Below are positions 11,973 through 26,372 of a stretch of 45,599 bases of DNA, piece after piece. A program made the position numbers and the translations under genes. The stretch lies in IMG/VR virus record IMGVR_UViG_3300020594_000001, positions 1-45,599 of that record; one strand, given 5' to 3'. The notes beneath the pieces are model-generated. The model was given only the letters and a program-made list of their open reading frames with translations. It ran no database searches and had not been told where the DNA came from. Every line of letters starts with the position of its first letter. The stretch's first letter is position 1. This stretch comes from a virus. Its lineage: Duplodnaviria; Heunggongvirae; Uroviricota; Caudoviricetes.

Positions 11973-13889
11973 TTAGTAAGCCTCGACCTGCCTTCCCAGC
12001 ATGGACCCGAACGTTTCGCCGTATGTTCCTGCCATGACGACGCCAACGCATACATAGTTCGAAGGGAGACGCTTTGTCCCGGCGCTGCCATTCACAGCCA
12101 GCGTGTATTCCGAACCAGTCCAGCGTATTGACTGTGTGTGAGCCGCTGGTGTGAACGTGCTGGGCTTGCTGCTGACCTCAGACCAAGTGGGCCAGCGCGT
12201 AGCTGTCGCAGGCACACCGGACGTAATATTGCCCCACGAGTGGTTGTGAGCCGCTGGCGCGAACGTAGTTGGCTTGCCCCCGACGTCGCCCCATGCAATT
12301 GCCAATGCAGCCTTAACCTGTGCCGGAGTGGACGGGCGAATGTAGTCGCTACCGATCGTCCCGGTTCCCGTGTAGATATGAGTGATTGACCCATTCGTGG
12401 TGGCATACGTCGATCGGAATAACCGAGCCCATACGTCCCCCGACGAATTTCGCATCATCGGTGTGCTTGGGGTAGCAGCGTCTGTGAACTCACCAGAGTG
12501 GTAGACGCGATTCGTGCCTACGTAGTAATGTCTGTTCGATTCGACGCGGTCAGATTTCAGCGTAAAGCTGGTGTTGTGCGTATAGGAGTGAAACGATATG
12601 TCGTCACTCTCTTCGCCGCCCTTGCCAACATACCAAGTGTTCGCGCTTCCATCAGAATTCTGCCCCTGCAGGTAAGAAGCGCCATCGTTTCTAATCTGCA
12701 CATACCTGTCGATAACCGGCGCTGCACGGTCGACTGGCGTGTAACCTAGCGCGTCTTGCTTTTCAGCAATAGTGATACCTAACGCGACGATCTGCGCTTG
12801 CAGCTTCCCGAAGGCGTCGATTACGCTATCCGTTGCAGCTATGGCTGCATTAGCGGTTGCGCTCAAGCCGTCGAGCACCACTTCGCGCACGCGTGCAGCT
12901 GTGAAGTATTTGTTCGTTGCTCCTTCGGGAACCGCGTCAGTGCTTCCAGGCGACGGCGATATCTCGACGTAACCAGTCCCGCTCCACCGATACTGCGCGT
13001 TTGCCGACTTGTCGACGTAAATCTTCCCGCTCTCTCCCGATGCAGGAAATTCAGGAACCGTGTCGAACTCCAGCACGTCGTCGACGTAGCTGGGCAGATG
13101 AATCGCTGGAATTTTGGCATCTGCATCCAAGGGCGCGACGCCGTTAGCAGCACCTTTCTGGCTCGCCTCGATCTTCTCGCTAAGCGCGGCAGTCAGACCC
13201 GGAATTTCTGCAATGGTGGGCGGCTTAACCGTCGAGAACGTGCGCTCCCAAGCGGTCCAGACGCCCGAATAGCGGCCCCGGAAAGCGAAGCACCCGCCGT
13301 TGATGCTGCCCTGGTTGTTATACGGCACGGCGATCTGGGTGATGTTTCCATCGCCATTTCGCCCGCTACCGTATTCAAGATTCCAGACAAAGAAGTATTG
13401 CCCGAAGCCGGGACCGTTGGTGTGACTCCCCAATAGCAGCACCGGGCCAATCCCGGGCTTCGTGTTGGTTGAGTCGTTCCAATCGAGAACGCCCGCTGTG
13501 GTCGTTGCGCCACCAAAGCGAAGCAGCGCTGGCGTCGAGACAGGTTTGTTAGCGTCTGACGTATTGTTGACGCTGCCCAACCCCAGATTCGCACGCGCGG
13601 TTGCGGCATTGGCAAGGTCGCTCAGGTTGCTTTCTTTCGCAAGCTTGGTCTCTATCTCCGCGACAACGTCGCTCAGGTCAGTTACAAGCTCCCATTGCGC
13701 AGGCTCGACCGCGACCAGCTGATACAGCTTGCTTTCGTCTTCCCTGAAGCACTGCATGCCCACTATGAGGTTAGTGGTGGGGAACGCACTGCCCGCGTTG
13801 TTGGATATCGCGGTTTTGTCGTTGTCCAGTATCGCCCCCAGCGACGCGCTGATCTTCATGCTGGGGCTGATTTCGGTATAGTTCTGCAT
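11973..13889 (-). CDS. Tail fibre protein 1 (638 aa; start MQNYTEI)
   Basis: Mosaic fibre modules (GVAPLDADAKIP, YRWSGTGY) and HxH repeats (AAHNH, AAHTQ). Confidence 0.88.
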   Translation of the reverse strand: MQNYTEISPSMKISASLGAILDNDKTAISNNAGSAFPTTNLIVGMQCFREDESKLYQLVAVEPAQWELVTDLSDVVAEIETKLAKESNLSDLANAATARANLGLGSVNNTSDANKPVSTPALLRFGGATTTAGVLDWNDSTNTKPGIGPVLLLGSHTNGPGFGQYFFVWNLEYGSGRNGDGNITQIAVPYNNQGSINGGCFAFRGRYSGVWTAWERTFSTVKPPTIAEIPGLTAALSEKIEASQKGAANGVAPLDADAKIPAIHLPSYVDDVLEFDTVPEFPASGESGKIYVDKSANAQYRWSGTGYVEISPSPGSTDAVPEGATNKYFTAARVREVVLDGLSATANAAIAATDSVIDAFGKLQAQIVALGITIAEKQDALGYTPVDRAAPVIDRYVQIRNDGASYLQGQNSDGSANTWYVGKGGEESDDISFHSYTHNTSFTLKSDRVESNRHYYVGTNRVYHSGEFTDAATPSTPMMRNSSGDVWARLFRSTYATTNGSITHIYTGTGTIGSDYIRPSTPAQVKAALAIAWGDVGGKPTTFAPAAHNHSWGNITSGVPATATRWPTWSEVSSKPSTFTPAAHTQSIRWTGSEYTLAVNGSAGTKRLPSNYVCVGVVMAGTYGETFGSMLGRQVEAY

Positions 13890-13891
13890 CG

Positions 13892-15262
13892 TTAGTATCC
13901 GTGCGCTGCCCATGCAAAAACCCCTGACGACAACGCGCCGTCAGGGGTTCGCATAATTGCGGTGAAACCTAATAGATCAATGTCGACAACGTCAGGGGTG
14001 GCGGGCACGCCAACGCCGCCCTTGGTGGTCAGGACAACTTCTGGGATGATGTGAAATTCACGGTTGAAATTGACCCGCACGCCGTTAGCGGCAACCTCAA
14101 TCGTTGCGCTACCACGGTCAATGATGTCTGGCACGTCAACGACTGCTTGAATGTTCGTGAGCATGCCCCGGTCAGAGTTCTTCGAGCTCAACACCGCCCT
14201 GAACATGGCCTTCTGGTATTCGTAGTCGCCCGGCATGAAGTCGCGCCAGTTCGAATAGCCAGCGGGACGCCCGTATTCGATCATCTGCTTGAACGCGTCA
14301 AGCGAAAGATCGCCATTGCTTAGAATCATGTCGCTTACTGCGAGGTCGCCCGCCCGTTCCAAACCTGCGTATATGCGGGCGAACTCGTATATGCGATGCT
14401 CCACCGCGAAACTTATGGGGTCTGCTATTCCAAGTCCTTCTATGAGGTCTCTGTTGTATTTCGCAGTGCGACCCCACGCTTCGGAGATTAAAAGCGGCGT
14501 AATGCTGTTGCGAGTAATCTCGCGCCAGTCACTCTCGTGCGTAATGTCGAAATACTCGAAAGTGGACACCGTCGCTTGACGGCTATCAACGGACTCAAGC
14601 GCCAACTGCGTTTCGAATGCAAGGTAGGCGTCCCAAACGTGGGCCTTGAAGTCGCTAATAACAAAAGGCTGAATAGAATGCTTGGTGACATTCTTGATTG
14701 GCGCTTGATCGATAACCGACAGCGCCTGGCTGATACTCTTAGCGCCCTGCTTGCGGTGAGTCGGCTCGACAACCAGGTATTCTGTCCGGCTCAGACCAAA
14801 CGCATTGGCGAGTGCGTCGCTTAGGCCGAACGCGCTGGAGAATTCACGGTAGAACTGCGCAGTCTTGGCATGGGACGAAGCCACCGAGAATTCGTCTACG
14901 AGCTCCAGGGAAGTTGCGAACCTCGTGCGATCTGCGATCGCCAGCGACTCCACAAAGCGCAGGTTGAAGTCGATTAGGTCTGTGTAGGACTCGCACAGGT
15001 GAAGGTTGCGCGCGAAAGGCAGATGAACCGATTTCTTACTGGAGTCGATGAGTCCCAGCGATTCAGCAAAATTCTTGAAGAACAGCTTGCCCTTAAAAAC
15101 ACTATCGAGCACAGACAGGGGTGTTGAGCAGGTCAGCTGCCAAAGGTTGATGGCGAAGCTTCCAAACTCAGACCCCTCGTGTTCGGGCGAATCCCAGGCT
15201 ACATTGGTCGCAGTAGCCCAGGTATATTCTTCGCCCGCGATACGCTCGACAGCGGTAGTCAC
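13892..15262 (-). CDS. Tail-associated structural protein with a repetitive shaft
   Basis: Roughly 18-20 aa periodic F.E.L.I.D pattern and a beta-rich C-terminal domain; between J and the fibres. Confidence 0.7.
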   Translation of the reverse strand: MTTAVERIAGEEYTWATATNVAWDSPEHEGSEFGSFAINLWQLTCSTPLSVLDSVFKGKLFFKNFAESLGLIDSSKKSVHLPFARNLHLCESYTDLIDFNLRFVESLAIADRTRFATSLELVDEFSVASSHAKTAQFYREFSSAFGLSDALANAFGLSRTEYLVVEPTHRKQGAKSISQALSVIDQAPIKNVTKHSIQPFVISDFKAHVWDAYLAFETQLALESVDSRQATVSTFEYFDITHESDWREITRNSITPLLISEAWGRTAKYNRDLIEGLGIADPISFAVEHRIYEFARIYAGLERAGDLAVSDMILSNGDLSLDAFKQMIEYGRPAGYSNWRDFMPGDYEYQKAMFRAVLSSKNSDRGMLTNIQAVVDVPDIIDRGSATIEVAANGVRVNFNREFHIIPEVVLTTKGGVGVPATPDVVDIDLLGFTAIMRTPDGALSSGVFAWAAHGY

Positions 15263-15830: not shown

Positions 15831-15860
15831 AGTGTAAGTGAGCTCTTACTTACATTTCAA
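15831..15860 (-). promoter_or_regulatory. Sigma70-like promoter (TTGAAA-18-TACACT) with an operator (15837-15850) in the spacer
   Basis: -35 at 15855-15860, -10 at 15831-15836. Confidence 0.6.
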
Positions 15861-18800
15861 GGCAAGTCATTCCAGTTCAGAAGGACTTCAGCAAATGTTG
15901 CACGGGGGGCGAACTCGCTTACCATCATCTTCGCGCCCACCTCTTCGCCAGCCCCCAAGCGTCCGACGAAAAGCTTGCGTTGGGTCGCGGTCTGCACGAC
16001 GGTAACCAAGATGGGGTCATCTTTCGCTGCGTCGACCCCGACCTGCATTGCTTCGCCAGCATCGCTAAGCAGCTTCACAGCGCCCGCGACTTCGCTGTAG
16101 TAGATGCGTAAGAACTTGCTGCCATCAGCGGTCTGTAACGACGCTATTTTTCTCTCGAACACACCCTCAAGATCGATCTGTGGGCTAACCCAAAGCGAGT
16201 AGACAAAGTGCGCAGGAAAGCCCACCGAGCCCCACTTGACGGTGCCACTGCCGCTTGTGGGGATAAGCCCCTGCGCATAGCGTCCGTCGCCCCACACGAG
16301 CTCGCCGCCCGCGCCAAGCTGCCCGTTCTTACCCGTGACGCTGGTGATATCCCCGTTGAGCGCCCAAGCGTCAACATCTGCGGGGCTGATTCCAGCACCA
16401 ACCGCGATCTGATACCGCCCGACCACCGAATCGATGTCGCCACCAGGAGCCCAGTGACGCAGCGCTTCGTCGCTCTCCCAGTTGAACAGAGACGTTTCCC
16501 AGTTCATTTCGTCGGTGTCTTCGACAATAGACGCCAGCTGGGCATATAGGGAGTTGGCAGCGCGGTAGTTCGCCAGCAGGTCGACGTGGAAGATATATTC
16601 GCTTCGGGCAACGCCGTTGACCATCATGATGTCGTTACCGAGACGACGCATGTTCAGCATTCGCCCAGCCCAGTCGGTATTAGCTTCGTCTGCGGTGAAA
16701 ACGATGTTCCGATCGGGCAAGATGGCAACTTGGTTGCCAATGAACGCGGCCAGGTCAGAATAGATCCCCGGGCTGGCGACTGCCTTAATCCAGAAGGTGC
16801 GAACGCCAATAGAGCCAGACGGTATGGTGAACGTCGTAGCTTTCACCTGCGAAACCAGGGTTCCTGTTACCCAGCTGTCGCCCTCGCGAATTTCGTAATA
16901 GACGACATCGGGTTCAGGATTTGCTTTCCAGTGCAGTTCAAGACGCTTCTCAGACTGGATGATGTCGAACCCAGCAACAGCCTCGGGGGCTTCAAGCACG
17001 AGCTTGAACGTGCTGACGTTGTCAGAGTATGCGCCCTGCGAGTTGACCGACCTGATGTGGTAATAGTAAGTGCCCGCTTTTTCCTGGTCATGGGTAATCA
17101 TCGTGCCCTGGAAGTTCTTGATGATTACCGTGGCGTTTTCCCAGTCTGGGCCGACACGGACCTCATATCCAGAAAGACGGATATCGGTCACCTCGTTCCA
17201 GGTCAGAACCAGGTCATTGGTTCGCTTCTGCACCCGGAAATTCGCAACGTCGCCGGGCGCAGCAGTTCTGCCCTTCGTGCTGTAGTTCGCAGAGAACACC
17301 TTGGAGCGCACACCAAAGCCATTGACCGCTATGATCTTGAATTGGTGCTGACCCGCACGCACGTTCCCAAGGGAAATATTCGGGTTTGTCGTGTGCTCGG
17401 TGACCCAGTTGGTTGCGTAAGTGCCGGTGCGTCGCCATGTCACTTCGTAGCGCGCTGCGTTCTGGGCAAACCACGATACGTCCAGGGACAGACCCACAAC
17501 CCCCGGCGCAACTTCTATAGAGAGCTCAGCAACCTTAAAGTCGCCCACGTCGCCAACCTTGCGGGGGTCGACGATAGAGATATCAGGCTCAACAATGTCC
17601 AGGCCCTTTTCGATCGCTTCGTATTTGCTCGCGTTGTGCTCTAGCGCTTCAATCTGGAACTCGCCCGCGTTCTCGCCCTGCTTGATGTTGATGACGCGGG
17701 CAACCTGGGGCTCTAGCGATTCTTCAGAAATGACGAACATCGCCCCAGGCAAGGGCTGTGCGGGCAAGTTTGACGCCCAAGTGATGACGTCGGTGGTTCC
17801 CGGCTTATTGTTGATAAAGCGAGTCGCAAACGTGCCGTCCGGCATGCGAATTGCGATCTTGGTTCCGCCAAATTCGTCAATCTTGACTGGCGCGTCAAGC
17901 GTCGCGATGTTAAGGGTGCAGTCTTTAAGACGCCCACCCATGCGCTTGCCAGCCAGAATCGGGTCATGAATCTCGATCAGGTCACCAGGAAGCACGTTCG
18001 CGCTATCAAGCCCGACCTTGAAGCTGATGACATTGGACTCATACTTTTCGGTATATAGAATCCACTTGCCCACACGATGCGCTTGCCCCCGGCTGGTGCA
18101 CCCAAACGCAATAGTGTCCAGCTGGCGAATGCCATACATCTGGATGAGCTCGCGGTCCTCGACATACTCGACGGCGCGCTCGTAGTCGCGCGTTGGGTCG
18201 TTCCAGCTGACACAGATGACCGTATGGCGATCAGAAGCGCCAGGACCAGAGCGCTCGAACATGCCATTCACCACGTTCGCAGGGCTGTAACGCATCACAG
18301 GTTCGCCCGGGCGGTCTTGCGTGAACCGCGCGGTGCCGCCAGCCCAGTAAACCATACCGCGCAGCGCAGCAGAGATATCCGCGATCAGTCTGAACGCTTC
18401 GACCCGGGTTTGAATCTGAGTGTTGATCTCGAATCGGGGCTCTGTGCCGCCCCTGCCATTGGGCACGCGCTCGTCGCAATAGCGGCCAATGCGATAAAGC
18501 TCTTCGACGTCCACCATGGCTTGGGAGATAAACTGGCCCAGCCCATAGCGCTTGTTGGTCAGAACATCGTTAAGAATCCAAGCGGGGTTCGACGAAATGG
18601 CGAGCTTGAAAGTGCCATTCCACACACCACTGTATGTTTTAGTGACCGGGTCGTAGTTGGACGGCACCTTGATGTAAAGCCCGTCAACCAGGTAAGACCG
18701 AACCGGGATGCTGTCGAAATACGAAGAATCGACCTTCAACCCCACCAATGCAGTGTTGGGGTATCGCAGCTTGCTATCGATAATCTCGACGATGGAGCTC

Positions 18801-19939
18801 AGGTAGGTCTCGTTGCTCAGCGCCTCGCTGGTCGAATCCTCGGTATCGCGCACCACTCGAATACGCCATTCCAGATTCTGTGAAGCAGGATCGTCGTTCT
18901 CAATACTTGGCTTAGGCAGCGTCAGCACATATTCTTTCTGCCACCGCGAAGACGTTTTGTGGTCTACCTTGACGTTCGACGCGGTCTGAAACGCGCCATT
19001 GTTCTGCGCGATGTCGAAGTGAAAATTGACCGAAGTTCCGAAAATGTCGCCAGTTTCCTTGTCCTGCCGTCGCAGCGCAGGAAACGTCATGATGATGCGA
19101 ACCCGGTCTACGTCGGGGTTGCTGATTGTCACGGTCGCGGGCTGGCTCTTTCGCACCCGAACATTAATGTCGCGCGGCGTCTCGACGGTCGAAAAGCCGG
19201 GAATTACAGACTGAGACTGGGTGCCAGTGCGCTGCTCCCACTTGACGCCCTCGATGTTTCTGGAGCCGTCAGCGTTCTGAATCGGCGTGCCGTCGAAGAA
19301 AATGGATTTCTCGCCATTGACCAAACCCCCAATTGCGCCCTCGCCCAGTGCGTCGAGAATCGACACCATGACTTTGGAGCGCACGTTGTCGGGGGTTTCG
19401 ACAGGAACCCGAACCGATCCACCATCGCCCTTACCTCCCCCGCCGCCCGCACCCTGAATGTCTTCAGCAATTAGCGGATGACGTTGGCGGTGCCCGCCAT
19501 TGTGAACCCGAATGCCATCGCAGATGAACGTGTGGTGCGGCTCAACCGTCAGGTTGTAGACAGGCTCTGTAGCGACGTGCTCGGCTTCGATAATCGGGCG
19601 CAAGTGCCCCAGCTGGTCGACAAGCGCGTCTTCGATCGACATCGTGCCAATCTCGACAAACGCGCCATACTGATTCAATACCCAGTGGTTCGGGGTGATG
19701 TGCGACGTCCCGCCCCAGTAGCGCACGCGCAAGATGGGCTGGGGGTCTGCGTGGTAGTGCGTCTTCGTGACTTTGGCCCGATGCACCCTACCCTGTTCGT
19801 CGAACGAAAGAACGGTGTCGCCCTCTTTGAGCGTTTCGATGGCGACGGTCTTCCCGCCTTCGACCAGGACTTGCGAGCCCGCACGAAAGCAACCCCCGCC
19901 AGAACCTACAATCTCATTTTCAAGCGCTACGTGTTCCAT
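15857..19939 (-). CDS. Tail tip / central tail fibre (lambda J-like) with an N-terminal Hint domain
   Basis: J motifs (YPNTAL, VPSNYDP, WNGTFK, NPAWIL, EPRF, GQAHRVGKW), FN3-like repeats, and a Hint domain at residues 17-147. Confidence 0.92.
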   Translation of the reverse strand: MEHVALENEIVGSGGGCFRAGSQVLVEGGKTVAIETLKEGDTVLSFDEQGRVHRAKVTKTHYHADPQPILRVRYWGGTSHITPNHWVLNQYGAFVEIGTMSIEDALVDQLGHLRPIIEAEHVATEPVYNLTVEPHHTFICDGIRVHNGGHRQRHPLIAEDIQGAGGGGGKGDGGSVRVPVETPDNVRSKVMVSILDALGEGAIGGLVNGEKSIFFDGTPIQNADGSRNIEGVKWEQRTGTQSQSVIPGFSTVETPRDINVRVRKSQPATVTISNPDVDRVRIIMTFPALRRQDKETGDIFGTSVNFHFDIAQNNGAFQTASNVKVDHKTSSRWQKEYVLTLPKPSIENDDPASQNLEWRIRVVRDTEDSTSEALSNETYLSSIVEIIDSKLRYPNTALVGLKVDSSYFDSIPVRSYLVDGLYIKVPSNYDPVTKTYSGVWNGTFKLAISSNPAWILNDVLTNKRYGLGQFISQAMVDVEELYRIGRYCDERVPNGRGGTEPRFEINTQIQTRVEAFRLIADISAALRGMVYWAGGTARFTQDRPGEPVMRYSPANVVNGMFERSGPGASDRHTVICVSWNDPTRDYERAVEYVEDRELIQMYGIRQLDTIAFGCTSRGQAHRVGKWILYTEKYESNVISFKVGLDSANVLPGDLIEIHDPILAGKRMGGRLKDCTLNIATLDAPVKIDEFGGTKIAIRMPDGTFATRFINNKPGTTDVITWASNLPAQPLPGAMFVISEESLEPQVARVINIKQGENAGEFQIEALEHNASKYEAIEKGLDIVEPDISIVDPRKVGDVGDFKVAELSIEVAPGVVGLSLDVSWFAQNAARYEVTWRRTGTYATNWVTEHTTNPNISLGNVRAGQHQFKIIAVNGFGVRSKVFSANYSTKGRTAAPGDVANFRVQKRTNDLVLTWNEVTDIRLSGYEVRVGPDWENATVIIKNFQGTMITHDQEKAGTYYYHIRSVNSQGAYSDNVSTFKLVLEAPEAVAGFDIIQSEKRLELHWKANPEPDVVYYEIREGDSWVTGTLVSQVKATTFTIPSGSIGVRTFWIKAVASPGIYSDLAAFIGNQVAILPDRNIVFTADEANTDWAGRMLNMRRLGNDIMMVNGVARSEYIFHVDLLANYRAANSLYAQLASIVEDTDEMNWETSLFNWESDEALRHWAPGGDIDSVVGRYQIAVGAGISPADVDAWALNGDITSVTGKNGQLGAGGELVWGDGRYAQGLIPTSGSGTVKWGSVGFPAHFVYSLWVSPQIDLEGVFERKIASLQTADGSKFLRIYYSEVAGAVKLLSDAGEAMQVGVDAAKDDPILVTVVQTATQRKLFVGRLGAGEEVGAKMMVSEFAPRATFAEVLLNWNDLP
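19499..19891 (-). other. Hint (mini-intein/BIL-like) domain, 131 aa, Cys17 to Asn147
   Basis: Block A CFRAGSQV, block B TPNH, block F VYNLTVEPHHTF, terminal VHN; the +1 residue is Gly. Confidence 0.9.
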
Positions 19940-19945
19940 GTTGCC

Positions 19946-20581
19946 TTAGACGCCAATTTGTTCGACCGATACTGATGCGTGGAGGTTGTTCGAGCCCACG
20001 AGAACACGCCCGTAGATGAGCGATATGGGGTATCCCTCGCCAGATGTGCCCGTTGGCCCGTTGAAGTAATACGAGGGCTTGTTTTCTTCGCTCTGCATGT
20101 CCATGCCGCTCGTGTTGGGCGTTTTCGTCAGCAAGCCCACCACGCCACCGACAACCGAGCTCACGCCCATACCAAAAGCGACGCTGCCTAGCGCGTTCAT
20201 GCCTGTCAGCGTCCACCCGCCAGACCACAGCGCGCCCACAATGAGCACTGCACCAATGAGAATTCGCCCAAAATCGCCCGCGCCTTCGATGACAGGAACG
20301 AAGCGAATCGATTTCACGCTCAGGGAAATATCGAGCTCTTCGCCCGATAGCTCTGACATACCCCCGTCTTCGCGCTCATAAACGACGTGGTAATGGGTGT
20401 AGAGGTCCGCGTTATCGCGAATCCAGTTCGTCAAACCAGGGCTGTTCGCATTGATGAGGCGCAGCGCTTGCGCAGCGTTGCGCACGCACAGTTCCCATTC
20501 GCGCCCGAACTTCTCGCCCATGACGCCCTCAAGCACCACGCGCGTCAGCTTCTGCTCATCAGCCAATGCCATTTCGCTCAT
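19946..20581 (-). CDS. Tail assembly protein (lambda I-like)
   Basis: FG.EW.L.V.NAAQALR, IRFVPVIEGAG, YYFNGP and G.PI.LIYGRVLVGS motifs. Confidence 0.88.
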   Translation of the reverse strand: MSEMALADEQKLTRVVLEGVMGEKFGREWELCVRNAAQALRLINANSPGLTNWIRDNADLYTHYHVVYEREDGGMSELSGEELDISLSVKSIRFVPVIEGAGDFGRILIGAVLIVGALWSGGWTLTGMNALGSVAFGMGVSSVVGGVVGLLTKTPNTSGMDMQSEENKPSYYFNGPTGTSGEGYPISLIYGRVLVGSNNLHASVSVEQIGV

Positions 20582-21333
20582 CGCATCAACTCCCGATGGC
20601 GCGCATGAATGACGGTGTGCTTCTGGTAGTAGCCCCCGTAGATATCGTGCTTGCTCAGACGGTTCAGCGAGTGGTGCAGCATTCGGTCATCGCCCACATA
20701 GATCGCCACATGATTGGGCTCGTCCGAACCCGCGTCTTGAATGAAGAAGAGGTCGCTCGGTTTGGGTTCTTCGTTGATCAGTTGAACGAAGCCCTCGTCT
20801 TGGTAGTGCTTGGCAAAGAGCGTCGCGCCCGGGGTGCCATCGGGGAGCGTGTAGGGGTAGTTGCGTAACGCGATGCTGTGCTCGCGGGCGAAATAGTCGA
20901 TTGCCAGCGTCCAGCAGTCGAAGATTCCCGGCACATACGGACGCCCCGTATACGCCATCTTGAAACCAGAAGGCTGCATAGACTGCACCTCGCCATAGAC
21001 GAAGTTCTCGCCCTCTTTCGTGATCTGCATCACATACCAGGGCACGCCACCAACCTCACAGCCCGCTTTATCAGCGTCAGTGAAGGTGTGATGCCCTTCG
21101 GGGTGGGTGTGCCATATGCCAATCACCTGCGCGCGGTCAGCGTGCTGCGTATGCTCAATGCGCCCGATGCGAAACATCTTCGTGGGGAATTCATGGGTGT
21201 TCGTGCAACGGACAATCTCAGTCTTGCCCGTGCGATGCGCCAACACCAGACCACACGCCTCTTTTGGGTATTCTTTTGCTCCGTAAACCTGCATGGCATA
21301 GGTCAGGTCACGAATGGGAAGATCAGCCTTCAT
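20578..21333 (-). CDS. Tail assembly protein K-like (JAB/MPN plus NlpC/P60); start MKADLP
   Basis: YPKEACG, WHTHP (JAB), FDCWTL and NHVAIY (NlpC/P60); GGAG Shine-Dalgarno before the revised start. Confidence 0.88.
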   Translation of the reverse strand: MKADLPIRDLTYAMQVYGAKEYPKEACGLVLAHRTGKTEIVRCTNTHEFPTKMFRIGRIEHTQHADRAQVIGIWHTHPEGHHTFTDADKAGCEVGGVPWYVMQITKEGENFVYGEVQSMQPSGFKMAYTGRPYVPGIFDCWTLAIDYFAREHSIALRNYPYTLPDGTPGATLFAKHYQDEGFVQLINEEPKPSDLFFIQDAGSDEPNHVAIYVGDDRMLHHSLNRLSKHDIYGGYYQKHTVIHARHRELMR

Positions 21334-22039
21334 AGCGGCGCGCTCCTGGGAAGCCGCCATAGGGCAGCGCGTTGTTTGTTCCAAATCGACGCTCGCACGA
21401 TCGAAGGCGCTTACCGCAGACGTCTTCAGCAATAGTCCAGACGCGTTGGTCTTCGTTGTTGAAGTAGACTGCCTTGGTGTAGCCACACTCTGCGCTGCGA
21501 TACACCCACGGGCACGAGTTCTGGATGATCTGCCTGAAGGGCAGCATCACACCCTCCAGGTCAAATGCAGACGCCAGTTCCCACTCGATGATGTAGGAGT
21601 TTTCGAGCACCTTTCGCTCGATCTGGAACATGTCGTCTTCAAAGTGATGGTTCGGATTCGCGTTCGGGTTCACACCACCAGGGAAGTTGACGGCGTCCAA
21701 GAACCGAGCGAACGTGCGCTTGCGGATGACCTTGGCGGTAACCAGGTCACGCATTTCGCGCACCCCCGCTGAGAAGAGTCCGTCGATATTGGCAACGCGC
21801 AGCTTCGGGCGGGGCAGCGTGCCCTGCGTGGTCACGTCGAACCCCTCGACCTCGACGGGCAGTGGTGAATAGGTTTGGCCTTGCCACACGACGGGCTGCT
21901 GAAGACCGTTTGTGCCAGCGTGGAAGCGAATTAGCTGCCCGCCAAGCTTGGTCATGTCGAGCACGAAAAGCTCGACAATTGCAGATGGAGAAAGCGATTG
22001 AGCTTCTGCCGCTACTGCTGCAGGTAAATTCGAGCTCAT
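21323..22039 (-). CDS. Minor tail protein L-like
   Basis: RFHAGTN, TLPRPKL, KRTFARFLDAVNF, and four Cys (CPW.Y...C, CGK...SC). Confidence 0.92.
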   Translation of the reverse strand: MSSNLPAAVAAEAQSLSPSAIVELFVLDMTKLGGQLIRFHAGTNGLQQPVVWQGQTYSPLPVEVEGFDVTTQGTLPRPKLRVANIDGLFSAGVREMRDLVTAKVIRKRTFARFLDAVNFPGGVNPNANPNHHFEDDMFQIERKVLENSYIIEWELASAFDLEGVMLPFRQIIQNSCPWVYRSAECGYTKAVYFNNEDQRVWTIAEDVCGKRLRSCERRFGTNNALPYGGFPGARRYEG

Positions 22040-22377
22040 AGGTCGAACACCTCTTCAAAGTCACAGGTAAGCTCGTAGACGCCCAACCCGACTTGCTCAG
22101 ATGCCCATTCGCGACAAACGAACTTGCGGGTATCACCGCGAGGGTCAGTCCATTCGAATGCAGTAGCGCCCGCTTGGGCTTCGATGAAGTCAAGCTGCGC
22201 TTTGTGTTCTGCGTAATGCGCGGTGAACACCAAGTTGGCCCAGATGACGGGCGAAACGTTGATGCCATCTTTGATGCGAAGTTCGTAGCCGTCGCCAAAG
22301 CGGGTGCTTTGAATGCGGGGTTTTGTTTTTCGCTGCGCGCCCAGATTGGGGCGAGCCCAGAATTGCCCTATCGCCAT
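22036..22377 (-). CDS. Minor tail protein M-like (distal tail)
   Basis: RFGDGYE...DGIN, AFEWTDP and FEEVF motifs. Confidence 0.88.
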   Translation of the reverse strand: MAIGQFWARPNLGAQRKTKPRIQSTRFGDGYELRIKDGINVSPVIWANLVFTAHYAEHKAQLDFIEAQAGATAFEWTDPRGDTRKFVCREWASEQVGLGVYELTCDFEEVFDL

Positions 22378-22379
22378 GC

Positions 22380-25300
22380 TTACCTCACCAACCCGCCATA
22401 GCGGCGCTGGTTACGCACTTCGTCGATGACGATTGCGCGCACCCTCTCTGCCATGATTCGCCACGAACTGCTTTGGTCGCTCGCAGATGTCGACGTAGAA
22501 CTGCTGCCATCGCTGTTCTGCGTAACGTTGATTTCGATGCTCACGGGCGTCACGCCACCACCGCCCGTCATCGTCACGGGTATCGACCTGCCATCGGGCA
22601 AGGGAACGTAAGCTTCGTTGTGGCTACCCTCGCCATAGAGCGCCAGTTGGGGCGACGACGCGATACCACCCTTGGCATACCTGCGCAGGGCAACCGGGCC
22701 AAAGGAAGTCATGACCCCACCCTTTGCGAACGCGAAAGAAGGGCCAGTGGGGATAAAGTTGCTCATGCTGCCAAGCGAGTCGCCCAGCGACGCACCGCCT
22801 GCAGAACCCAGGCCCGCCAAGCCGCCCCCACCGCTCAACAATGAGCCAAGCAGTCCAGAAGACGACGAACCCCCACTCTGGGCAGCAAGCTGTGTCAGCG
22901 CAGCAGTGGCTGCGTTGGTGGCAGACGTAAGACTGCCCAGGGCGAAGGTCTGCGCTTGGGAAGCGGTGCGCTCCGTCATCGCGTTGGTTTCAGACTGAAG
23001 TGCGGCCTTGAAGGTCGTCTTCGTCATTTCAGCGATGCCCTGCTTGCTCAGGTCACCTACTGCCATGTTCAGCGTTTGGAGCGAAGGTGCGAGCGAATTG
23101 AAGTGCGTCAGCAGTTGCCCGCCAGCGCTCAGAAGCCCCGAATTGGGGTTGATCGCGGTAACGCCCTGCATGCTCGCAGCGCCCAGAGCGCTGGAACCAG
23201 AGCCGATCGAATTCAGAAACTCTTTGATCTTGGTGCCCGCAGTGCCAAACCACTCATCCATGGAGTTGGCCAGGGTCTTCTGCAGCACAATACGGTTGAA
23301 GTCTTTCAGCCAGGACGCAATCATGTTGCGCCACTCAAGCTTTCCGGTTTCGGTGAAATTTGCGATTTCATCGATCGACTCGCTGGCCCAGTCAGCGACC
23401 ATGTTGTCGACGCCCGTGCCGAAGTTGTCTCGCCATTCCCGGGTCATGGACTGCAGCGGCGTTTCAAGCTCCCTGGCAAGCTGGTGGGTGCGCGCCACGA
23501 TGTAGCGGGCTTTCTCGTCCTCGATCGCCTTGATCTTCTCCGCTGCGTCTTCACGATCACCGACTTCTTTCATGAGGGCGTCGAACTTTGCGTTCATCAC
23601 CTTCATTTCGTTGTCGTATTGAGCTTGCGAACGTTCAGCGTCGGTGCCCATGAGCGACAAGTCGATTTCACGGGTCGCTTCGCGCAAGCCGATAGCCATT
23701 TCAGCCAAGTCACGCAGGGCTGCAGAAGAGACCATGTCTTTGGTCTGCTCTTTGACCTTGCCAGCAGTGCCGCCCGCTTTGACCATGGCTTGGTCGAGCG
23801 TAAGAATGCGCTTGCGCAGCTGCTCAAACTCAGTGCCCGCCAGCGATGCAGCTGCAGGATCAAGAAGCGTGTCGAATACGCCAGACCCAACCTCATCGAT
23901 CTGCTCGCGCAGGTTCTTAACACGCTCCAGAACAGCTTCGATCCTGTCCGCCTGTTTCTCAGCGTCGGTTTTGGGCGTCTTCTTCGGTGCTTTGCCACCA
24001 GTGAGGTCTTGAAACGTCGTCATCGCTTCTTGCGCAGCGCGATAGTTCTCGGCCCTTTCACGCTCACTAGCTCGCGCAGCTTTAAGCACCGCATTAGCCT
24101 GGTTCAAGTCCTCGTCGTTCGCACCAGCCACGATAAGCTTGTTGCGCTCCGCCTCCGCTTCTGCTGTCGCATTTTTGGCGCTCTCATAAAGCTCTTGGTC
24201 GCGATCAAGAATGAGCTTGCGTCGCTCTGCAATGGCCTCTGCCTGAACCTGTGTAATCTTCTCTTGCGTGCCTTTCTCATTCTTCAGACGGAGCTCAGCA
24301 AGTCGCTCTTGCTCTTTACGCTCAACCTCGTTGTAACTTGCGCTGTATCGACCAGATATCTCGTCGACTCTCTCTTGATTCAGTGTTTGCCAGCGCGCCT
24401 CGGCCTTAGCACCGTCATTGACGCGTGCTTGGGAGATTGAGTCGCTCAGTGCCTTCTTCAGTTCAGCAATATCCGCTTCTGCTTGCGCGATTGTGGCGTT
24501 AGCGTCATCGTCGGATGCGGAATAGCCCTGCTTGCGCGCCGCCTTGTTTACTTCGAGCTGTATCCTGGCACGCTTTATCTCGTCGTTCTTTTCATCAATA
24601 AGTGTTCGGGTTTGCTCGACGGTTTCGCTGGTCGCTATGCCCGACTTGGCAGCGCTCAGAACGTCTTTGATCGCTTGTTTGCCAGAGTTGCCCCACTTCA
24701 TCCACGCCATGGCACCCAGCGACAGCGCTAATGTGATCGCGCCCACCCAGCCACCCACTAGGGCGAGTGCAGCGCCGCCTACCCTCATTGCAGCGGTCTG
24801 GGCGGCAATACGGGCGGTAGTCAGGGCGGTGACACCGGCCAGCTTCTGCTGAGCGGCAGCATGTTGGGTGGTAGTCTTGACAAGGTCAGCTTGCGTTGCG
24901 GCAAGGCGCTTTGCGCGCGCGATCTGACTATCCATCGCGCGCAACTGCATGTTCAGGTTCTCAGCGCTTCGACGCGCTACGAACGCAGGGTCAGAGTGGT
25001 CGTTTGCGCGCGCGCCCGCACCCCCATACCGTGGGGTATTGGATAGAAACTGGTAGCGAGCTTCAGCTTCTGCTGCTCTGCGCGCCATGGCGGTGCGTTC
25101 AGCCAGCTTGGCACGCAGATGTGCTTTGGTCCTGACGAGCTCTTCCTGGTTCTGGCGCGCCGTCTCTTGGCTACGTCGGACATCGAAGTTGCGCAGCTGT
25201 TGCTCTTCTTGAACCTTCAGACTGATAAGGTTGCGTAAAGAGTTCTTCCTGATTTGCTGCAGCTGTTCAGCGCTCTTTTGCTCCCCAGACAGGTTGACGC

Positions 25301-26372
25301 CGAAGAGACCGCCCGCTATGCTGTTGCCCAGCCCGCCAAGCGCTTTACCAGCGCGTAGTGCGCCGAATGCGACCACTAGACCCTTGATAAGGTCGATATG
25401 GTTCGCGATCGCTTTGGCAGACGCCGTCAGCCCGCGAGTCAGGCTTGCGAGTGCTTCGCCAAAGTCATTTGCCATCTTCTTGCCAGCGTTGCTGTCCAAA
25501 AAGATGGTCAGTTCTTTCATCTGGCTCTTGACCTCCTGGGCGAAGCCAGACTTTGCTGCATCATTGACCAGCAAGTCCCAGGTCGTCTTCAATCGCGCCT
25601 GCACCCCGCTCCAAGTCTGCATCATGGTCTTGGCTGCGCCTTCGTTCTCGAAGCGCATTACCACCGCCATACGCGAAATGGCTTCGCGGGACTCTACGAC
25701 GCCATCGGCAATCTTCTTTTGAAGCACCGCCATGGAGACGCCCACGCCCAGGGCCATGTTGCGCATCGCGGTGGGCACAGCTTCACCCAACTGCTGGCGA
25801 AGCTCTTCCATGGATATCACGCCCTTACCGCCCATCTGCTGGATAGCAACCGCAGCACGCTTGAGCGTTTCGGACGTGCCTCCAAAACGCGCGTTTGCGT
25901 CGACCAGAGCTTGAAGCGAGCCATTCAACGGGTCGATGCCACCCGTCTTGAATTTCACAAACGCGTCAGACAGAGACTCGATCGTGAACGGCGCATTCTT
26001 GGACATATTGACCAAGTAAGCGACGTTGTCGCCTGCTTCTTTGATACGATCAGCTGCGCCGGTCTGAGTGCTCAAGCCCTGCATGAGCACCTGCAGACGC
26101 TCGAACTTCCCGTAGGTGTTCATGACTGCGCCGGGCAGTCGTATGAAGAGGTCGGTAAGGTCGCCTACCGTGTAGCGCAGGGCGGCGACCGTAGTGGATA
26201 CATGGCGGAACGAACGGGCGGCGCGCGACAGCCCCGATTCGACATGGCGGGTCTGGGCAACCGTAGACACCAGCGACTTGTTCAGTTCGCGAAGTGTTTC
26301 GCCGCCACGCTTGAGGTTGACGGTAAAATTCTTGTCGTCACAGACTAGCTCAATGCCTAAAACTTCTTTCAT
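22380..26372 (-). CDS. Tape measure protein (1330 aa)
   Basis: Long Ala-rich helical ORF, tape-measure N-terminal domain (ISMEELRQQLGE), and C-terminal FAKGG...GE...EAYVPL. Confidence 0.93.
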   Translation of the reverse strand: MKEVLGIELVCDDKNFTVNLKRGGETLRELNKSLVSTVAQTRHVESGLSRAARSFRHVSTTVAALRYTVGDLTDLFIRLPGAVMNTYGKFERLQVLMQGLSTQTGAADRIKEAGDNVAYLVNMSKNAPFTIESLSDAFVKFKTGGIDPLNGSLQALVDANARFGGTSETLKRAAVAIQQMGGKGVISMEELRQQLGEAVPTAMRNMALGVGVSMAVLQKKIADGVVESREAISRMAVVMRFENEGAAKTMMQTWSGVQARLKTTWDLLVNDAAKSGFAQEVKSQMKELTIFLDSNAGKKMANDFGEALASLTRGLTASAKAIANHIDLIKGLVVAFGALRAGKALGGLGNSIAGGLFGVNLSGEQKSAEQLQQIRKNSLRNLISLKVQEEQQLRNFDVRRSQETARQNQEELVRTKAHLRAKLAERTAMARRAAEAEARYQFLSNTPRYGGAGARANDHSDPAFVARRSAENLNMQLRAMDSQIARAKRLAATQADLVKTTTQHAAAQQKLAGVTALTTARIAAQTAAMRVGGAALALVGGWVGAITLALSLGAMAWMKWGNSGKQAIKDVLSAAKSGIATSETVEQTRTLIDEKNDEIKRARIQLEVNKAARKQGYSASDDDANATIAQAEADIAELKKALSDSISQARVNDGAKAEARWQTLNQERVDEISGRYSASYNEVERKEQERLAELRLKNEKGTQEKITQVQAEAIAERRKLILDRDQELYESAKNATAEAEAERNKLIVAGANDEDLNQANAVLKAARASERERAENYRAAQEAMTTFQDLTGGKAPKKTPKTDAEKQADRIEAVLERVKNLREQIDEVGSGVFDTLLDPAAASLAGTEFEQLRKRILTLDQAMVKAGGTAGKVKEQTKDMVSSAALRDLAEMAIGLREATREIDLSLMGTDAERSQAQYDNEMKVMNAKFDALMKEVGDREDAAEKIKAIEDEKARYIVARTHQLARELETPLQSMTREWRDNFGTGVDNMVADWASESIDEIANFTETGKLEWRNMIASWLKDFNRIVLQKTLANSMDEWFGTAGTKIKEFLNSIGSGSSALGAASMQGVTAINPNSGLLSAGGQLLTHFNSLAPSLQTLNMAVGDLSKQGIAEMTKTTFKAALQSETNAMTERTASQAQTFALGSLTSATNAATAALTQLAAQSGGSSSSGLLGSLLSGGGGLAGLGSAGGASLGDSLGSMSNFIPTGPSFAFAKGGVMTSFGPVALRRYAKGGIASSPQLALYGEGSHNEAYVPLPDGRSIPVTMTGGGGVTPVSIEINVTQNSDGSSSTSTSASDQSSSWRIMAERVRAIVIDEVRNQRRYGGLVR

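What the first reader, a model, noticed from the sequence alone, without database searches (positions are those of the whole stretch)
19400..19939. Self-cleaving Hint domain with Gly at +1 at the very N-terminus of tail-tip protein J
Seen: a 16-aa leader ending IVGSGGG, then a 131-aa Hint domain (Cys1, TPNH, terminal His-Asn, no endonuclease), then GGHRQRHPLIAEDIQGAGGGGGKG. The I-x-G-[SA]-GGG motif typical of J N-termini occurs on both sides. Established: canonical splicing needs Cys/Ser/Thr at +1; type A bacterial intein-like domains lacking it mainly perform N- and C-terminal cleavage. The neighbouring genes I and K encode ubiquitin-like and JAB domains. Inference: the Hint may be a domesticated maturation switch that releases J with a new Gly N-terminus, or leaves a GG-thioester leader able to ligate to another tail protein or to act as a decoy against Ubl-conjugating defences.
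Basis: partly seen in the sequence, partly recalled or inferred. Interest (0 to 1): 0.7.

Follow-up and report, generated by a model that had tools for sequence, protein, structure and literature searches.

The report
Optional self-cutting Hint cassette on tail-tip J
The tail-tip protein J of this roughly 110-kb phage begins with a small intein-like (Hint/BIL) domain that almost certainly cuts itself off, but very close relatives lack it at the same spot, so it looks like an optional add-on rather than a necessary maturation switch.

Summary
J (window 15857-19939, minus strand, 1360 aa) has four parts:
- a 16-aa leader ending IVGSGGG;
- a 131-aa Hint domain with Cys17, T-P-N-H and His146-Asn147, and no endonuclease;
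- a 21-aa linker starting with Gly148;
- the ordinary lambda-type J, which begins at residue 169.

The best match by fold and by sequence is the Clostridium thermocellum bacterial intein-like (BIL) domain, PDB 2LWY. Across 220 copies of this Hint subfamily, +1 is Lys, Gly or Ala in 207, Ser once, and never Cys or Thr.

The cassette sits inside the poly-Gly N-terminus that Hint-less J proteins also have. Hundreds of uncultured phages carry it, but its distribution is patchy:
- the J-body tree needs at least 18 gains or losses;
- monophyly of Hint-bearing J is rejected (AU p = 4e-8);
- sister phages differ by exactly the cassette and keep the same M-L-K-I-J genes.

Most likely the domain removes itself by N- and C-terminal cleavage, leaving J with a Gly N-terminus. 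The ligation and decoy ideas have no support, and I-J read-through is rejected.

I found no paper describing a Hint on J. This scan has reported the same cassette on other DNA before (e1-3264484, e1-3484968).

The parts
15857..19939 (-). Gene for tail-tip protein J (1360 aa precursor)
   Evidence: ORF and translation. Pfam FNIII-A_GpJ at residues 252-388 and Phage-tail_3 at 514-671. NCBIfam lambda_TipJ aligns from residue 169.
19892..19939 (-). Leader (N-extein), residues 1-16, ending I-V-G-S-G-G-G; Gly16 is the -1 residue
   Evidence: Leaders of 8-37 aa ending in G-G-G occur in 103 of the 120 best homologues. Hint-less J proteins start with the same kind of leader.
19499..19891 (-). Hint (type-A BIL-like) autoprocessing domain, residues 17-147: Cys17, Thr82-Pro-Asn-His85, His146-Asn147
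   Evidence: Translation. Pfam and NCBIfam hits. Model pLDDT above 90. Best fold match is 2LWY BIL, TM 0.87. phmmer against PDB gives 2lwy at E = 1.8e-7. C17, T82, N84, H85, H146 and N147 are invariant in a 47-sequence alignment, and Cys1 and the terminal His-Asn are found in all 120 best homologues.
19436..19498 (-). Post-Hint linker, residues 148-168 (G-G-H-R ... I-Q-G-A-G-G-G-G): Gly148 is +1, and the linker carries a second copy of the leader-type motif
   Evidence: Translation. +1 to +4 is GGHR in 103, GGYR in 12 and GGFR in 4 of 120 homologues. The linker comes and goes together with the Hint in natural indels. It is absent from the 'simple' relatives, where H-N is followed directly by G-G-G-G-K-G.
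15857..19435 (-). Ordinary lambda-type J from residue 169 (G-K-G-D-G-G ... P-D-N-V-R-S-K ...) to the stop codon
   Evidence: The lambda_TipJ model begins at residue 169. This stretch aligns with the N-termini of Hint-less J proteins.
19946..20581 (-). Tail assembly protein I homologue (211 aa), a separate ORF ending in TAA
   Evidence: phrog_32 at E = 3e-49. The model has a confident N-terminal domain with weak ubiquitin-like beta-grasp matches. Hint-less sisters have the same gene.
20578..21486 (-). Tail assembly protein K homologue (JAB + NlpC/P60). The true start is probably later, since relatives are 243-248 aa.
   Evidence: Pfam Prok-JAB and NLPC_P60. The gene is present with or without the Hint in relatives.
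21323..22377 (-). Minor tail proteins L (21323-22039) and M (22036-22377)
   Evidence: Pfam Phage_tail_L and Phage_min_tail.
22380..26372 (-). Tape measure protein
   Evidence: Pfam TMP_3 and Tape_meas_lam_C.

Best explanation
This is a type-A bacterial intein-like (BIL) Hint domain carried as an optional cassette inside the glycine-rich N-terminal leader of a lambda-type tail-tip protein J.

Proposed mechanism (inferred from the conserved residues and from published BIL chemistry):
1. J is translated as leader-Hint-linker-J.
2. The Hint folds. Cys17 attacks the Gly16 carbonyl (N-S acyl shift) and forms a thioester.
3. Asn147 cyclises and cuts the Asn147-Gly148 bond.
4. With no Cys/Ser/Thr at +1 there is no trans-esterification, so the thioester is mostly hydrolysed.

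The 16-aa leader and the free 131-aa Hint are discarded. Mature J (residues 148-1360) starts with Gly-Gly. Its linker already holds a second copy of the leader-type I-x-G-A-G-G-G motif, so its N-terminus resembles that of Hint-less J proteins. A minor fraction may be religated if the freed Gly148 amine attacks the thioester.

In evolutionary terms the cassette behaves like a mini-intein without an endonuclease. It is gained, lost or exchanged among related phages. It is kept catalytically intact because an uncut 15-kDa cap on J would probably spoil tail-tip assembly. J function does not require it.
For: Shown here:
- Hint fold and catalytic residues.
- The nearest solved relative by both sequence and fold is the C. 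thermocellum BIL domain 2LWY.
- In 120 of 120 close homologues Cys1 and His-Asn are kept and +1/+2 are Gly-Gly.
- In 220 Hint copies from the 150 best representative clusters, residue 1 is Cys in 219, -1 is Gly in 180, and +1 is Lys 116, Gly 81, Ala 10, Ser 1, never Cys or Thr.
- Relatives of this Hint on plasmids sit in RTX-type calcium-binding proteins, a context I recall as typical of BIL domains.
- The cassette lies inside the poly-Gly N-terminus that Hint-less J proteins also have.
- The J-body tree needs at least 18 presence/absence changes, against 34-40 in the 10 label shuffles printed of 200, and has well-supported mixed sister clades, including this J's own clade.
- The AU test rejects a single Hint-bearing clade, p = 4e-8.
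- Two sister pairs share TMP-M-L-K-I-J synteny. In L090/L091, L, K and I are 75-80% identical; in L092/L093, M, L, K and I are 51-66% identical. The pairs differ by exactly Hint plus linker.
- Some J proteins lack the leader altogether, so religating the leader is not needed.
- There is no compositional anomaly and no other intein in the genome.

From the literature: BIL domains lack the +1 nucleophile and give predominantly N- and C-cleaved products (PMC7664689; PMC7765530).
Against: - No biochemical or proteomic data exist for any member, so cleavage is inferred from conserved residues only.
- The Hint is more conserved than J itself (mean pairwise identity 0.69 against 0.54), it has no homing endonuclease, and it is widespread. 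These facts could equally mean that it confers an advantage.
- Invariance of Cys1 and TxxH is not explained if C-terminal cleavage alone were enough to free J. The thioester may have a use.
- The tree-based patchiness could partly reflect recombination of whole N-terminal segments rather than gain or loss of the cassette alone.
- The Hint-bearing rows for the AU test were chosen after a first tree had been seen.
Confidence: 0.65

Rival explanations
1. The Hint is an adaptive pro-domain, for example a timing or quality-control device. It keeps the J N-terminus, which lies next to gpI and gpL in the tail-tip hub, blocked until the Hint has folded and cut. Phages that carry it gain in assembly fidelity or under some host condition.
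For: - The whole domain is highly conserved, more so than the J body.
- Hundreds of lineages carry it, from 30% to 70% identity.
- Tandem double copies are kept intact.
- There is no endonuclease to drive selfish spread.
- The linker G-G-[HYF]-R-x-R-[YF]-P is itself conserved.
Against: - Closely related phages do without it while keeping the same K, I, L and M genes.
- At least 18 gains or losses are needed.
- No partner gene co-varies with it.
- Purifying selection on an insertion in an essential protein would produce the same conservation.
Confidence: 0.17
2. The Hint really splices. After Asn147 cyclisation the free alpha-amine of Gly148 attacks the Gly16 thioester. This is ligation without a side-chain nucleophile, which I recall having been reported for the C. 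thermocellum BIL. It would restore a continuous leader-poly-Gly-J chain like that of Hint-less J.
For: - The cassette interrupts an otherwise continuous ancestral leader and poly-Gly sequence.
- Gly at -1 (180 of 220 copies) and Gly at +1 are the least hindered pair for aminolysis of a thioester (chemical inference).
- Cys1 and TxxH are invariant.
- The closest structure is the BIL domain 2LWY. From memory, that entry was published under a title about ligation without nucleophilic side chains.
Against: - The papers read here state that BIL domains give predominantly cleaved products and that A-type BILs cut but do not ligate.
- In this subfamily the C-extein already carries its own leader-like motif, which makes ligation unnecessary.
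- Some J proteins have no leader at all.
Confidence: 0.12
3. The Gly thioester is used for transfer, as in the Tetrahymena BUBL BIL2 domain. The leader (or J) is ligated to a lysine or N-terminus of another protein, or the cap acts as a shield or decoy against Ubl-conjugating (Bil) defence systems that target the central tail fibre.
For: - BUBL BIL2 structures are the second-best fold matches, and BIL2 forms lysine isopeptide bonds without E1 or E2 (PMC8616854).
- Bil systems conjugate a Ubl to the central tail fibre (bioRxiv 10.1101/2023.09.04.556158).
- A conserved Lys sits in the G-G-G-G-K-G-G stretch just after the Hint.
Against: - The N-extein is only a poorly conserved 8-37-aa leader, not a Ubl.
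- Gene I is a separate ORF whose frame relative to J is not conserved, so there is no I-J fusion by read-through.
- I and K are identical in kind in Hint-less sisters.
- The Lys is also present in Hint-less J proteins.
- The Bil target site on J is unknown.
Confidence: 0.05

Closest known systems
Type-A bacterial intein-like (BIL) domains (Amitai 2003; Dassa 2004; C. thermocellum BIL, PDB 2LWY; covered by Pfam PT-HINT PF07591)
   Same: - Hint fold, Cys1, block-B TxxH and C-terminal His-Asn, with no Cys/Ser/Thr at +1.
- Found in variable, non-catalytic regions.
- Often in several tandem copies.
- Expected to give N- and C-terminal cleavage.
- Best hit by both sequence and structure.
   Different: - The host protein is a phage virion protein (TipJ), and the domain sits at its extreme N-terminus, so the 'N-extein' is only a 16-aa leader.
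- Both junctions are poly-Gly.
- It forms a present/absent polymorphism at one fixed site among orthologues, as inteins do.
- No paper in the searched library describes this context.
Canonical class-1 mini-inteins (for example Ssp DnaB, Mtu RecA, gp41-1)
   Same: - Same fold and the same catalytic blocks A, B, F and G.
- Sporadic presence at an identical insertion point among homologues.
- Size of about 130-150 aa without an endonuclease.
   Different: - +1 is Gly, never a nucleophile, in all J copies.
- The insertion site is a flexible poly-Gly leader, not a conserved catalytic site.
- Ligation of the flanks is probably unnecessary.
Hedgehog C-terminal autoprocessing (Hog) domain
   Same: The G-G|C-F cleavage motif and the first 45 or so residues align with Sonic hedgehog (Pfam Hint PF01079). 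The chemistry starts with the same N-S acyl shift.
   Different: There is no sterol- or adduct-recognition region. The domain ends in His-Asn and is followed by the host protein.
BIL2 of the Tetrahymena BUBL (BIL-ubiquitin-like) locus (PDB 6Y75/6TMM)
   Same: A BIL-type Hint next to a C-terminal Gly-Gly. It is the second-best structural match. It shows that a BIL thioester can be resolved by a lysine amine.
   Different: Here no ubiquitin-like domain precedes the Hint. The Ubl-like protein I is a separate gene product.
Lambda gpJ / TipJ central tail fibre with the M-L-K-I-J tail-tip module
   Same: From residue 169 onward the protein is an ordinary TipJ, and the gene order TMP-M-L-K-I-J is the lambda one.
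   Different: Lambda J and all J proteins in the 50,697 GenBank phage records searched lack the Hint.

Membership tests
HINT superfamily (Hedgehog/intein fold) | Horseshoe-like all-beta Hint fold | tested here: met
   AlphaFold model with pLDDT above 90 over residues 17-147. Foldseek gives 64 PDB matches at E <= 1e-3; the 50 best listed are all BILs, inteins or Hedgehog, with a top TM of 0.87.
HINT superfamily (Hedgehog/intein fold) | N-terminal nucleophile (Cys/Ser) and block-B T-x-x-H | tested here: met
   Cys17 and Thr82-Pro-Asn-His85. C17, T82, N84 and H85 are invariant in the 47-sequence alignment, and Cys1 is found in all 120 best homologues.
Type-A BIL domain | C-terminal His-Asn retained but no Cys/Ser/Thr at +1 | tested here: met
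   His146-Asn147, then Gly148. +1/+2 are Gly-Gly in 120 of 120. Across 220 copies of the subfamily, +1 is K, G or A in 207, S once, and never C or T.
Type-A BIL domain | Located in variable, non-conserved regions of proteins, often in multiple copies, not in conserved sites of essential enzymes | tested here: met
   It is inserted in the variable poly-Gly leader of J. Tandem double copies occur on J. Arrays of 2 to 10 copies occur in non-phage proteins.
Type-A BIL domain | Sequence similarity to established BIL members or profile | tested here: met
   Pfam PT-HINT scores 29.7 bits against a 27.7 cut-off. The best PDB sequence hit is 2lwy BIL at E = 1.8e-7. The original A-type block motifs of Amitai 2003 were not available to test.
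Type-A BIL domain | Autocatalytic N- and/or C-terminal cleavage | not testable with these tools
   This needs expression and mass spectrometry. It is only inferred from conserved catalytic residues.
Canonical (class 1) intein | Cys/Ser/Thr at +1 for trans-esterification and extein ligation | tested here: not met
   Gly148. No J copy has a nucleophile at +1.
Canonical (class 1) intein | Sporadic presence at one fixed insertion point among orthologues | tested here: met
Hedgehog/Hog autoprocessing domain | Hint followed by a sterol- or adduct-recognition region; no terminal Asn | tested here: not met
   The domain ends in His-Asn and runs straight into the linker and J.
BUBL-type BIL (Ubl-dispensing) | Ubiquitin-like domain ending in Gly-Gly directly fused upstream of the Hint | tested here: not met
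   Only a 16-aa leader lies upstream. Gene I ends in TAA, and its frame relative to J is in register in only about one third of related loci.
Lambda-type TipJ | FNIII-A_GpJ and Phage-tail_3 domains, and M-L-K-I-J synteny | tested here: met

The most novel reading that the evidence does not exclude
The Gly-thioester that the Hint makes at the tip of J is used productively rather than simply hydrolysed. One possibility is BUBL-like, E1/E2-free transfer onto a lysine or N-terminus of a tail-tip partner, or onto J's own conserved Lys in the G-G-G-G-K-G-G stretch. Another is that the cap is a transient shield or decoy that protects J, the known target of bacterial Bil ubiquitin-like conjugation defence, during assembly. 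Either would make it an optional counter-defence or cross-linking module of phage tails.
Probability: 0.06. Interest if true: 0.85.

Novelty: new member of a known kind. Interest (0 to 1): 0.42.

Why it matters
- It extends BIL/Hint autoprocessing domains to a phage structural protein: the N-terminus of the tail-tip protein that starts tail assembly and binds the receptor.
- The cassette forms a large family that appears undescribed: hundreds of uncultured phages, none of the 50,697 GenBank phage records searched, and no paper found.
- Natural cassette-plus and cassette-minus sister phages offer a clean way to ask whether endonuclease-free Hint domains persist as harmless passengers or because they do something useful.
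- The domain is small (131 aa) with Gly at both junctions, so it may also interest protein engineers looking for traceless self-cleaving tags.
- For genome annotation, these J genes are intact and not fusions or errors. The mature protein probably begins at Gly148.

Tried and rejected
1. **Read-through fusion of I to J.** In the window the I stop codon (TAA) is in frame with the J start, two codons upstream. Across about 50 distinct related loci, the I stop is in frame with J in only about one third. Most are in another frame, often overlapping the start. Rejected.

2. **Coupling of the Hint to special I or K genes.** Hint-less sisters have the same K (JAB + NlpC/P60) and I genes. In L090/L091 these are 75-79% identical; in L092/L093, 51-60%. 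Rejected.

3. **A recent foreign insertion.** The GC content of the Hint (0.58-0.60) matches its surroundings. No DNA-level direct repeats flank the cassette; the duplicated motif exists at the protein level only.

4. **A source intein elsewhere in the genome.** None was found.

5. **Isolated phages or plasmids with a Hint on J, as an experimental handle.**
   - None among 50,697 phage records; the only hits were weak helicase inteins in Vibrio phages.
   - None among 72,556 plasmids; the only hits were BILs in RTX-type proteins.
   - Only 8 loci among GTDB species genomes, 5 of them with 53-71% identity to this J N-terminus.

6. **Literature.** Searches combining 'bacterial intein-like', 'Hint domain' or 'intein' with tail tip, gpJ or host specificity protein J found no description.

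7. **Fold of protein I.** Only weak ubiquitin-like matches were found. None reached E = 1e-3.
Full report
**What is there**

The minus-strand ORF at 15857-19939 encodes a 1360-aa protein. An in-frame TAA lies three codons before its ATG, and no other start codon precedes Cys17, so the 16-aa leader (ending I-V-G-S-G-G-G) is real.

- Residues 17-147 (window 19499-19891) run from C-F-R-A-G to R-V-H-N.
- Residues 148-168 (19436-19498) are G-G-H-R-Q-R-H-P-L-I-A-E-D-I-Q-G-A-G-G-G-G.
- From residue 169 the protein aligns with position 2 of the NCBIfam lambda_TipJ model. It carries FNIII-A_GpJ and Phage-tail_3 domains.

Upstream on the same strand lie I (phrog_32), K (JAB + NlpC/P60), L, M and the tape measure protein. 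The window belongs to a 109.6-kb virus record that also encodes a ligase, primase, DnaB-type helicase, portal, terminase and capsid genes.

**Is it a Hint domain?**

Yes.

- Pfam PT-HINT passes its gathering threshold (29.7 against 27.7 bits). Hint, Hint_2, Vint and Intein_splicing hit the same stretch below threshold.
- NCBIfam intein N- and C-terminal models also hit it.
- A model built on a 47-sequence alignment has pLDDT above 90 through residues 17-147, with disordered flanks.
- Foldseek places it closest to the C. thermocellum bacterial intein-like domain 2LWY (TM 0.87, rmsd 1.6 A). Next come BIL2 of the Tetrahymena BUBL locus, then mini-inteins and Hedgehog.
- By sequence alone, 2LWY is again the best solved relative (E = 1.8e-7). 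The leader plus the first 35 Hint residues align with the G-G|C-F cleavage site of Sonic hedgehog.

**Catalytic residues and flanks**

In the 120 best homologues:

- the Hint is 130-132 aa;
- Cys1 and the terminal His-Asn are always present, and block-B T-P-N-H is conserved (T82, N84 and H85 are invariant in the 47-sequence alignment);
- the three residues before Cys1 are G-G-G in 103;
- the four residues after Asn are G-G-H-R (103), G-G-Y-R (12), G-G-F-R (4) or G-G-Y-A (1).

An exhaustive profile-free search with residues 1-170 found 383 representative clusters at E <= 1e-10. Of the best 150, 73 are J-like. Another 46 are other proteins with two or more tandem Hints. In 220 full-length copies:

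| Position | Residue counts |
|---|---|
| Residue 1 | Cys in 219 |
| -1 | Gly in 180 |
| +1 | Lys 116, Gly 81, Ala 10, Ser 1; never Cys or Thr |

. As far as I recall, His-Asn without a +1 nucleophile is the signature of type-A BIL domains. Plasmid-borne relatives sit in RTX-type calcium-binding proteins, which I recall as a typical BIL context.

**Where it sits in J**

Hint-less J proteins that are just as similar to this J body (49-55% identity, the same range as most Hint-bearing ones) begin with a short variable leader. Next comes (hydrophobic)-x-G-A-G-G-G-G, often K-G-G-G, and then the conserved A-V-E-D-P-D-S-L-Q-S-R stretch. The Hint is therefore an insertion inside the ancestral poly-Gly N-terminus of J.

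More distant Hint-bearing J proteins show the simple form, where H-N is followed directly by G-G-G-G-K-G-G and the lambda-like N-terminus.

The window's subfamily has an extra conserved segment, G-G-[HYF]-R-x-R-[YF]-P-V, followed by a second copy of the I-A-G-A-G-G-G-G motif. After C-terminal cleavage, mature J would therefore still start with a leader-like peptide. I read this as adaptation to cleavage without ligation (inference).

Six of the 42 Hint-less relatives start directly at M-N-E-A-K-D-S-L-R-S, with no leader or poly-Gly at all. The leader is therefore not universally needed.

**Is it conserved or sporadic?**

Both, at different scales. The cassette is common:

- 828 database proteins hit residues 1-260, and the top 120 all have the full architecture.
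- 92 IMG/VR contigs carry it.

It is also patchy:

- On a FastTree of 161 J bodies (119 with the Hint, 42 without), presence or absence needs at least 18 changes, against 34-40 in the 10 label shuffles printed of 200.
- Several well-supported small clades are mixed. One is the window's own four-member clade, which includes the Hint-less 'host specificity protein J' of an Achromobacter assembly.
- On an IQ-TREE of 74 sequences, the AU test rejects a single Hint-bearing clade (delta lnL 992, p = 4e-8). The caveat is that I picked the Hint-bearing rows after seeing the first tree.
- Two sister pairs fetched with their context have the same TMP-M-L-K-I-J order. In L090/L091, L, K and I are 75-80% identical and the J body 73%; in L092/L093, M, L, K and I are 51-66% identical and the J body 63%. 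The J genes differ by exactly the Hint plus its linker. In the Hint-less members, gene I ends directly before the J start, so this is not a gene-calling artefact.

The Hint is better conserved than J (mean pairwise identity 0.69 against 0.54, r = 0.62). Some pairs have 88%-identical Hints on 44%-identical J bodies, which points to exchange by recombination.

That result is what I find.

**Mechanism**

- Shown: every residue needed for thioester formation and Asn cyclisation is present and under strong purifying selection, and there is no +1 nucleophile.
- Established in the literature read here: BIL domains lack the +1 nucleophile and give predominantly N- and C-cleaved products. A single mutation can turn them into efficient splicers (PMC7664689). 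A-type BILs cleave at Asn (PMC7765530).
- Inferred: the precursor cuts itself at Gly16|Cys17 and Asn147|Gly148. The leader and Hint are discarded, and J matures with a Gly-Gly N-terminus.

[quoted passage not shown] An uncut 15-kDa cap on each of three J chains would probably be incompatible with assembly. That would explain why no decayed copies are seen.

The invariance of Cys1 is not fully explained by a need for C-terminal cleavage alone. That leaves room for aminolytic splicing (Gly at -1 and +1 is the most favourable pair) or for some use of the thioester.

**The I/K, ubiquitin and decoy ideas**

K does carry JAB and NlpC/P60 domains. The N-terminal domain of I gives only weak fold matches, all to ubiquitin-like beta-grasp domains. 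However:

- these genes belong to every lambda-type tail-tip module and are unchanged in Hint-less sisters;
- the in-frame arrangement of the I stop and the J start in this window is not conserved;
- what the Hint would activate is a short variable leader, not a Ubl.

The BUBL precedent (BIL2 makes lysine isopeptides; PMC8616854) and the fact that Bil defence conjugates a Ubl to the central tail fibre make the idea worth a bench test. Nothing found here supports it.

**Novelty**

I found no paper that mentions a Hint or BIL domain on a tail-tip or J protein. No isolated phage or plasmid record carries one. Among species-representative genomes, five loci match this J N-terminus closely. Three are in Betaproteobacteria (Castellaniella, Oxalobacter and an unclassified MAG). 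The other two are on contigs binned as Chloroflexi and Micrococcales, probably mis-binned. NCBI also holds a copy in Herbaspirillum huttiense.

The domain type and its expected chemistry are known. The host protein and the cassette behaviour are new. This scan has already reported the same cassette on other DNA (e1-3264484 and e1-3484968). My independent tests agree with those notes.

Noticed in passing
L076:2377-3800, L077, L078 and protein P0122 (related J proteins): Some J proteins carry two Hint domains in tandem at the N-terminus, joined by G-G-G-G-K-G-G. Both have intact Cys1 and His-Asn. In P0122 the two copies are 54% identical.
   Followed up: partly
Proteins P0129, P0131, P0138: Non-phage proteins with this layout: signal peptide, 4-5 tandem Hints of the same subfamily (junctions H-N|K-G-G|C), a Gly-rich stretch, a membrane helix and a C-terminal Tim44-like domain. 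Other proteins have up to 10 tandem Hints (P0166). I know of no described function for such arrays.
   Followed up: partly
L079-L081 and L075 (IMG/VR contigs): The same Hint subfamily, again followed by poly-Gly, sits inside glycine-rich phage proteins of roughly 420-600 aa that are not J. The junction is S-T-S-S-T|C in L079-L081 and S-G-A-G|C in L075.
   Followed up: no
L074:3467-4520: [quoted passage not shown]
   Followed up: no
window 19937-19948: The stop codon of gene I (TAA) is in frame with the J start codon two codons downstream (TAA GGC AAC ATG). This is not conserved in relatives, so it is probably coincidence.
   Followed up: yes
window 19946-20581 (-): The I homologue gets no Pfam hit at E <= 0.01, although it matches phrog_32 strongly. 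Its model has a confident N-terminal alpha/beta domain (residues 13-98), two long helices, and a low-confidence C-terminal part that holds the family's most conserved motifs.
   Followed up: partly
L092:13565-13579 onward (Achromobacter sp. AGC39 contig): The Hint-less sister phage has, a few genes downstream of J, a 570-aa gene with a weak Hom_end_hint hit. This is possibly a canonical intein in another gene.
   Followed up: no
window 11973-13913 (-) and 13892-15262 (-): Two large genes lie downstream of J. One has a gp37-type tail-fibre trimerisation region and many tail-fibre PHROG hits. The other (456 aa) has no family hit at all.
   Followed up: no
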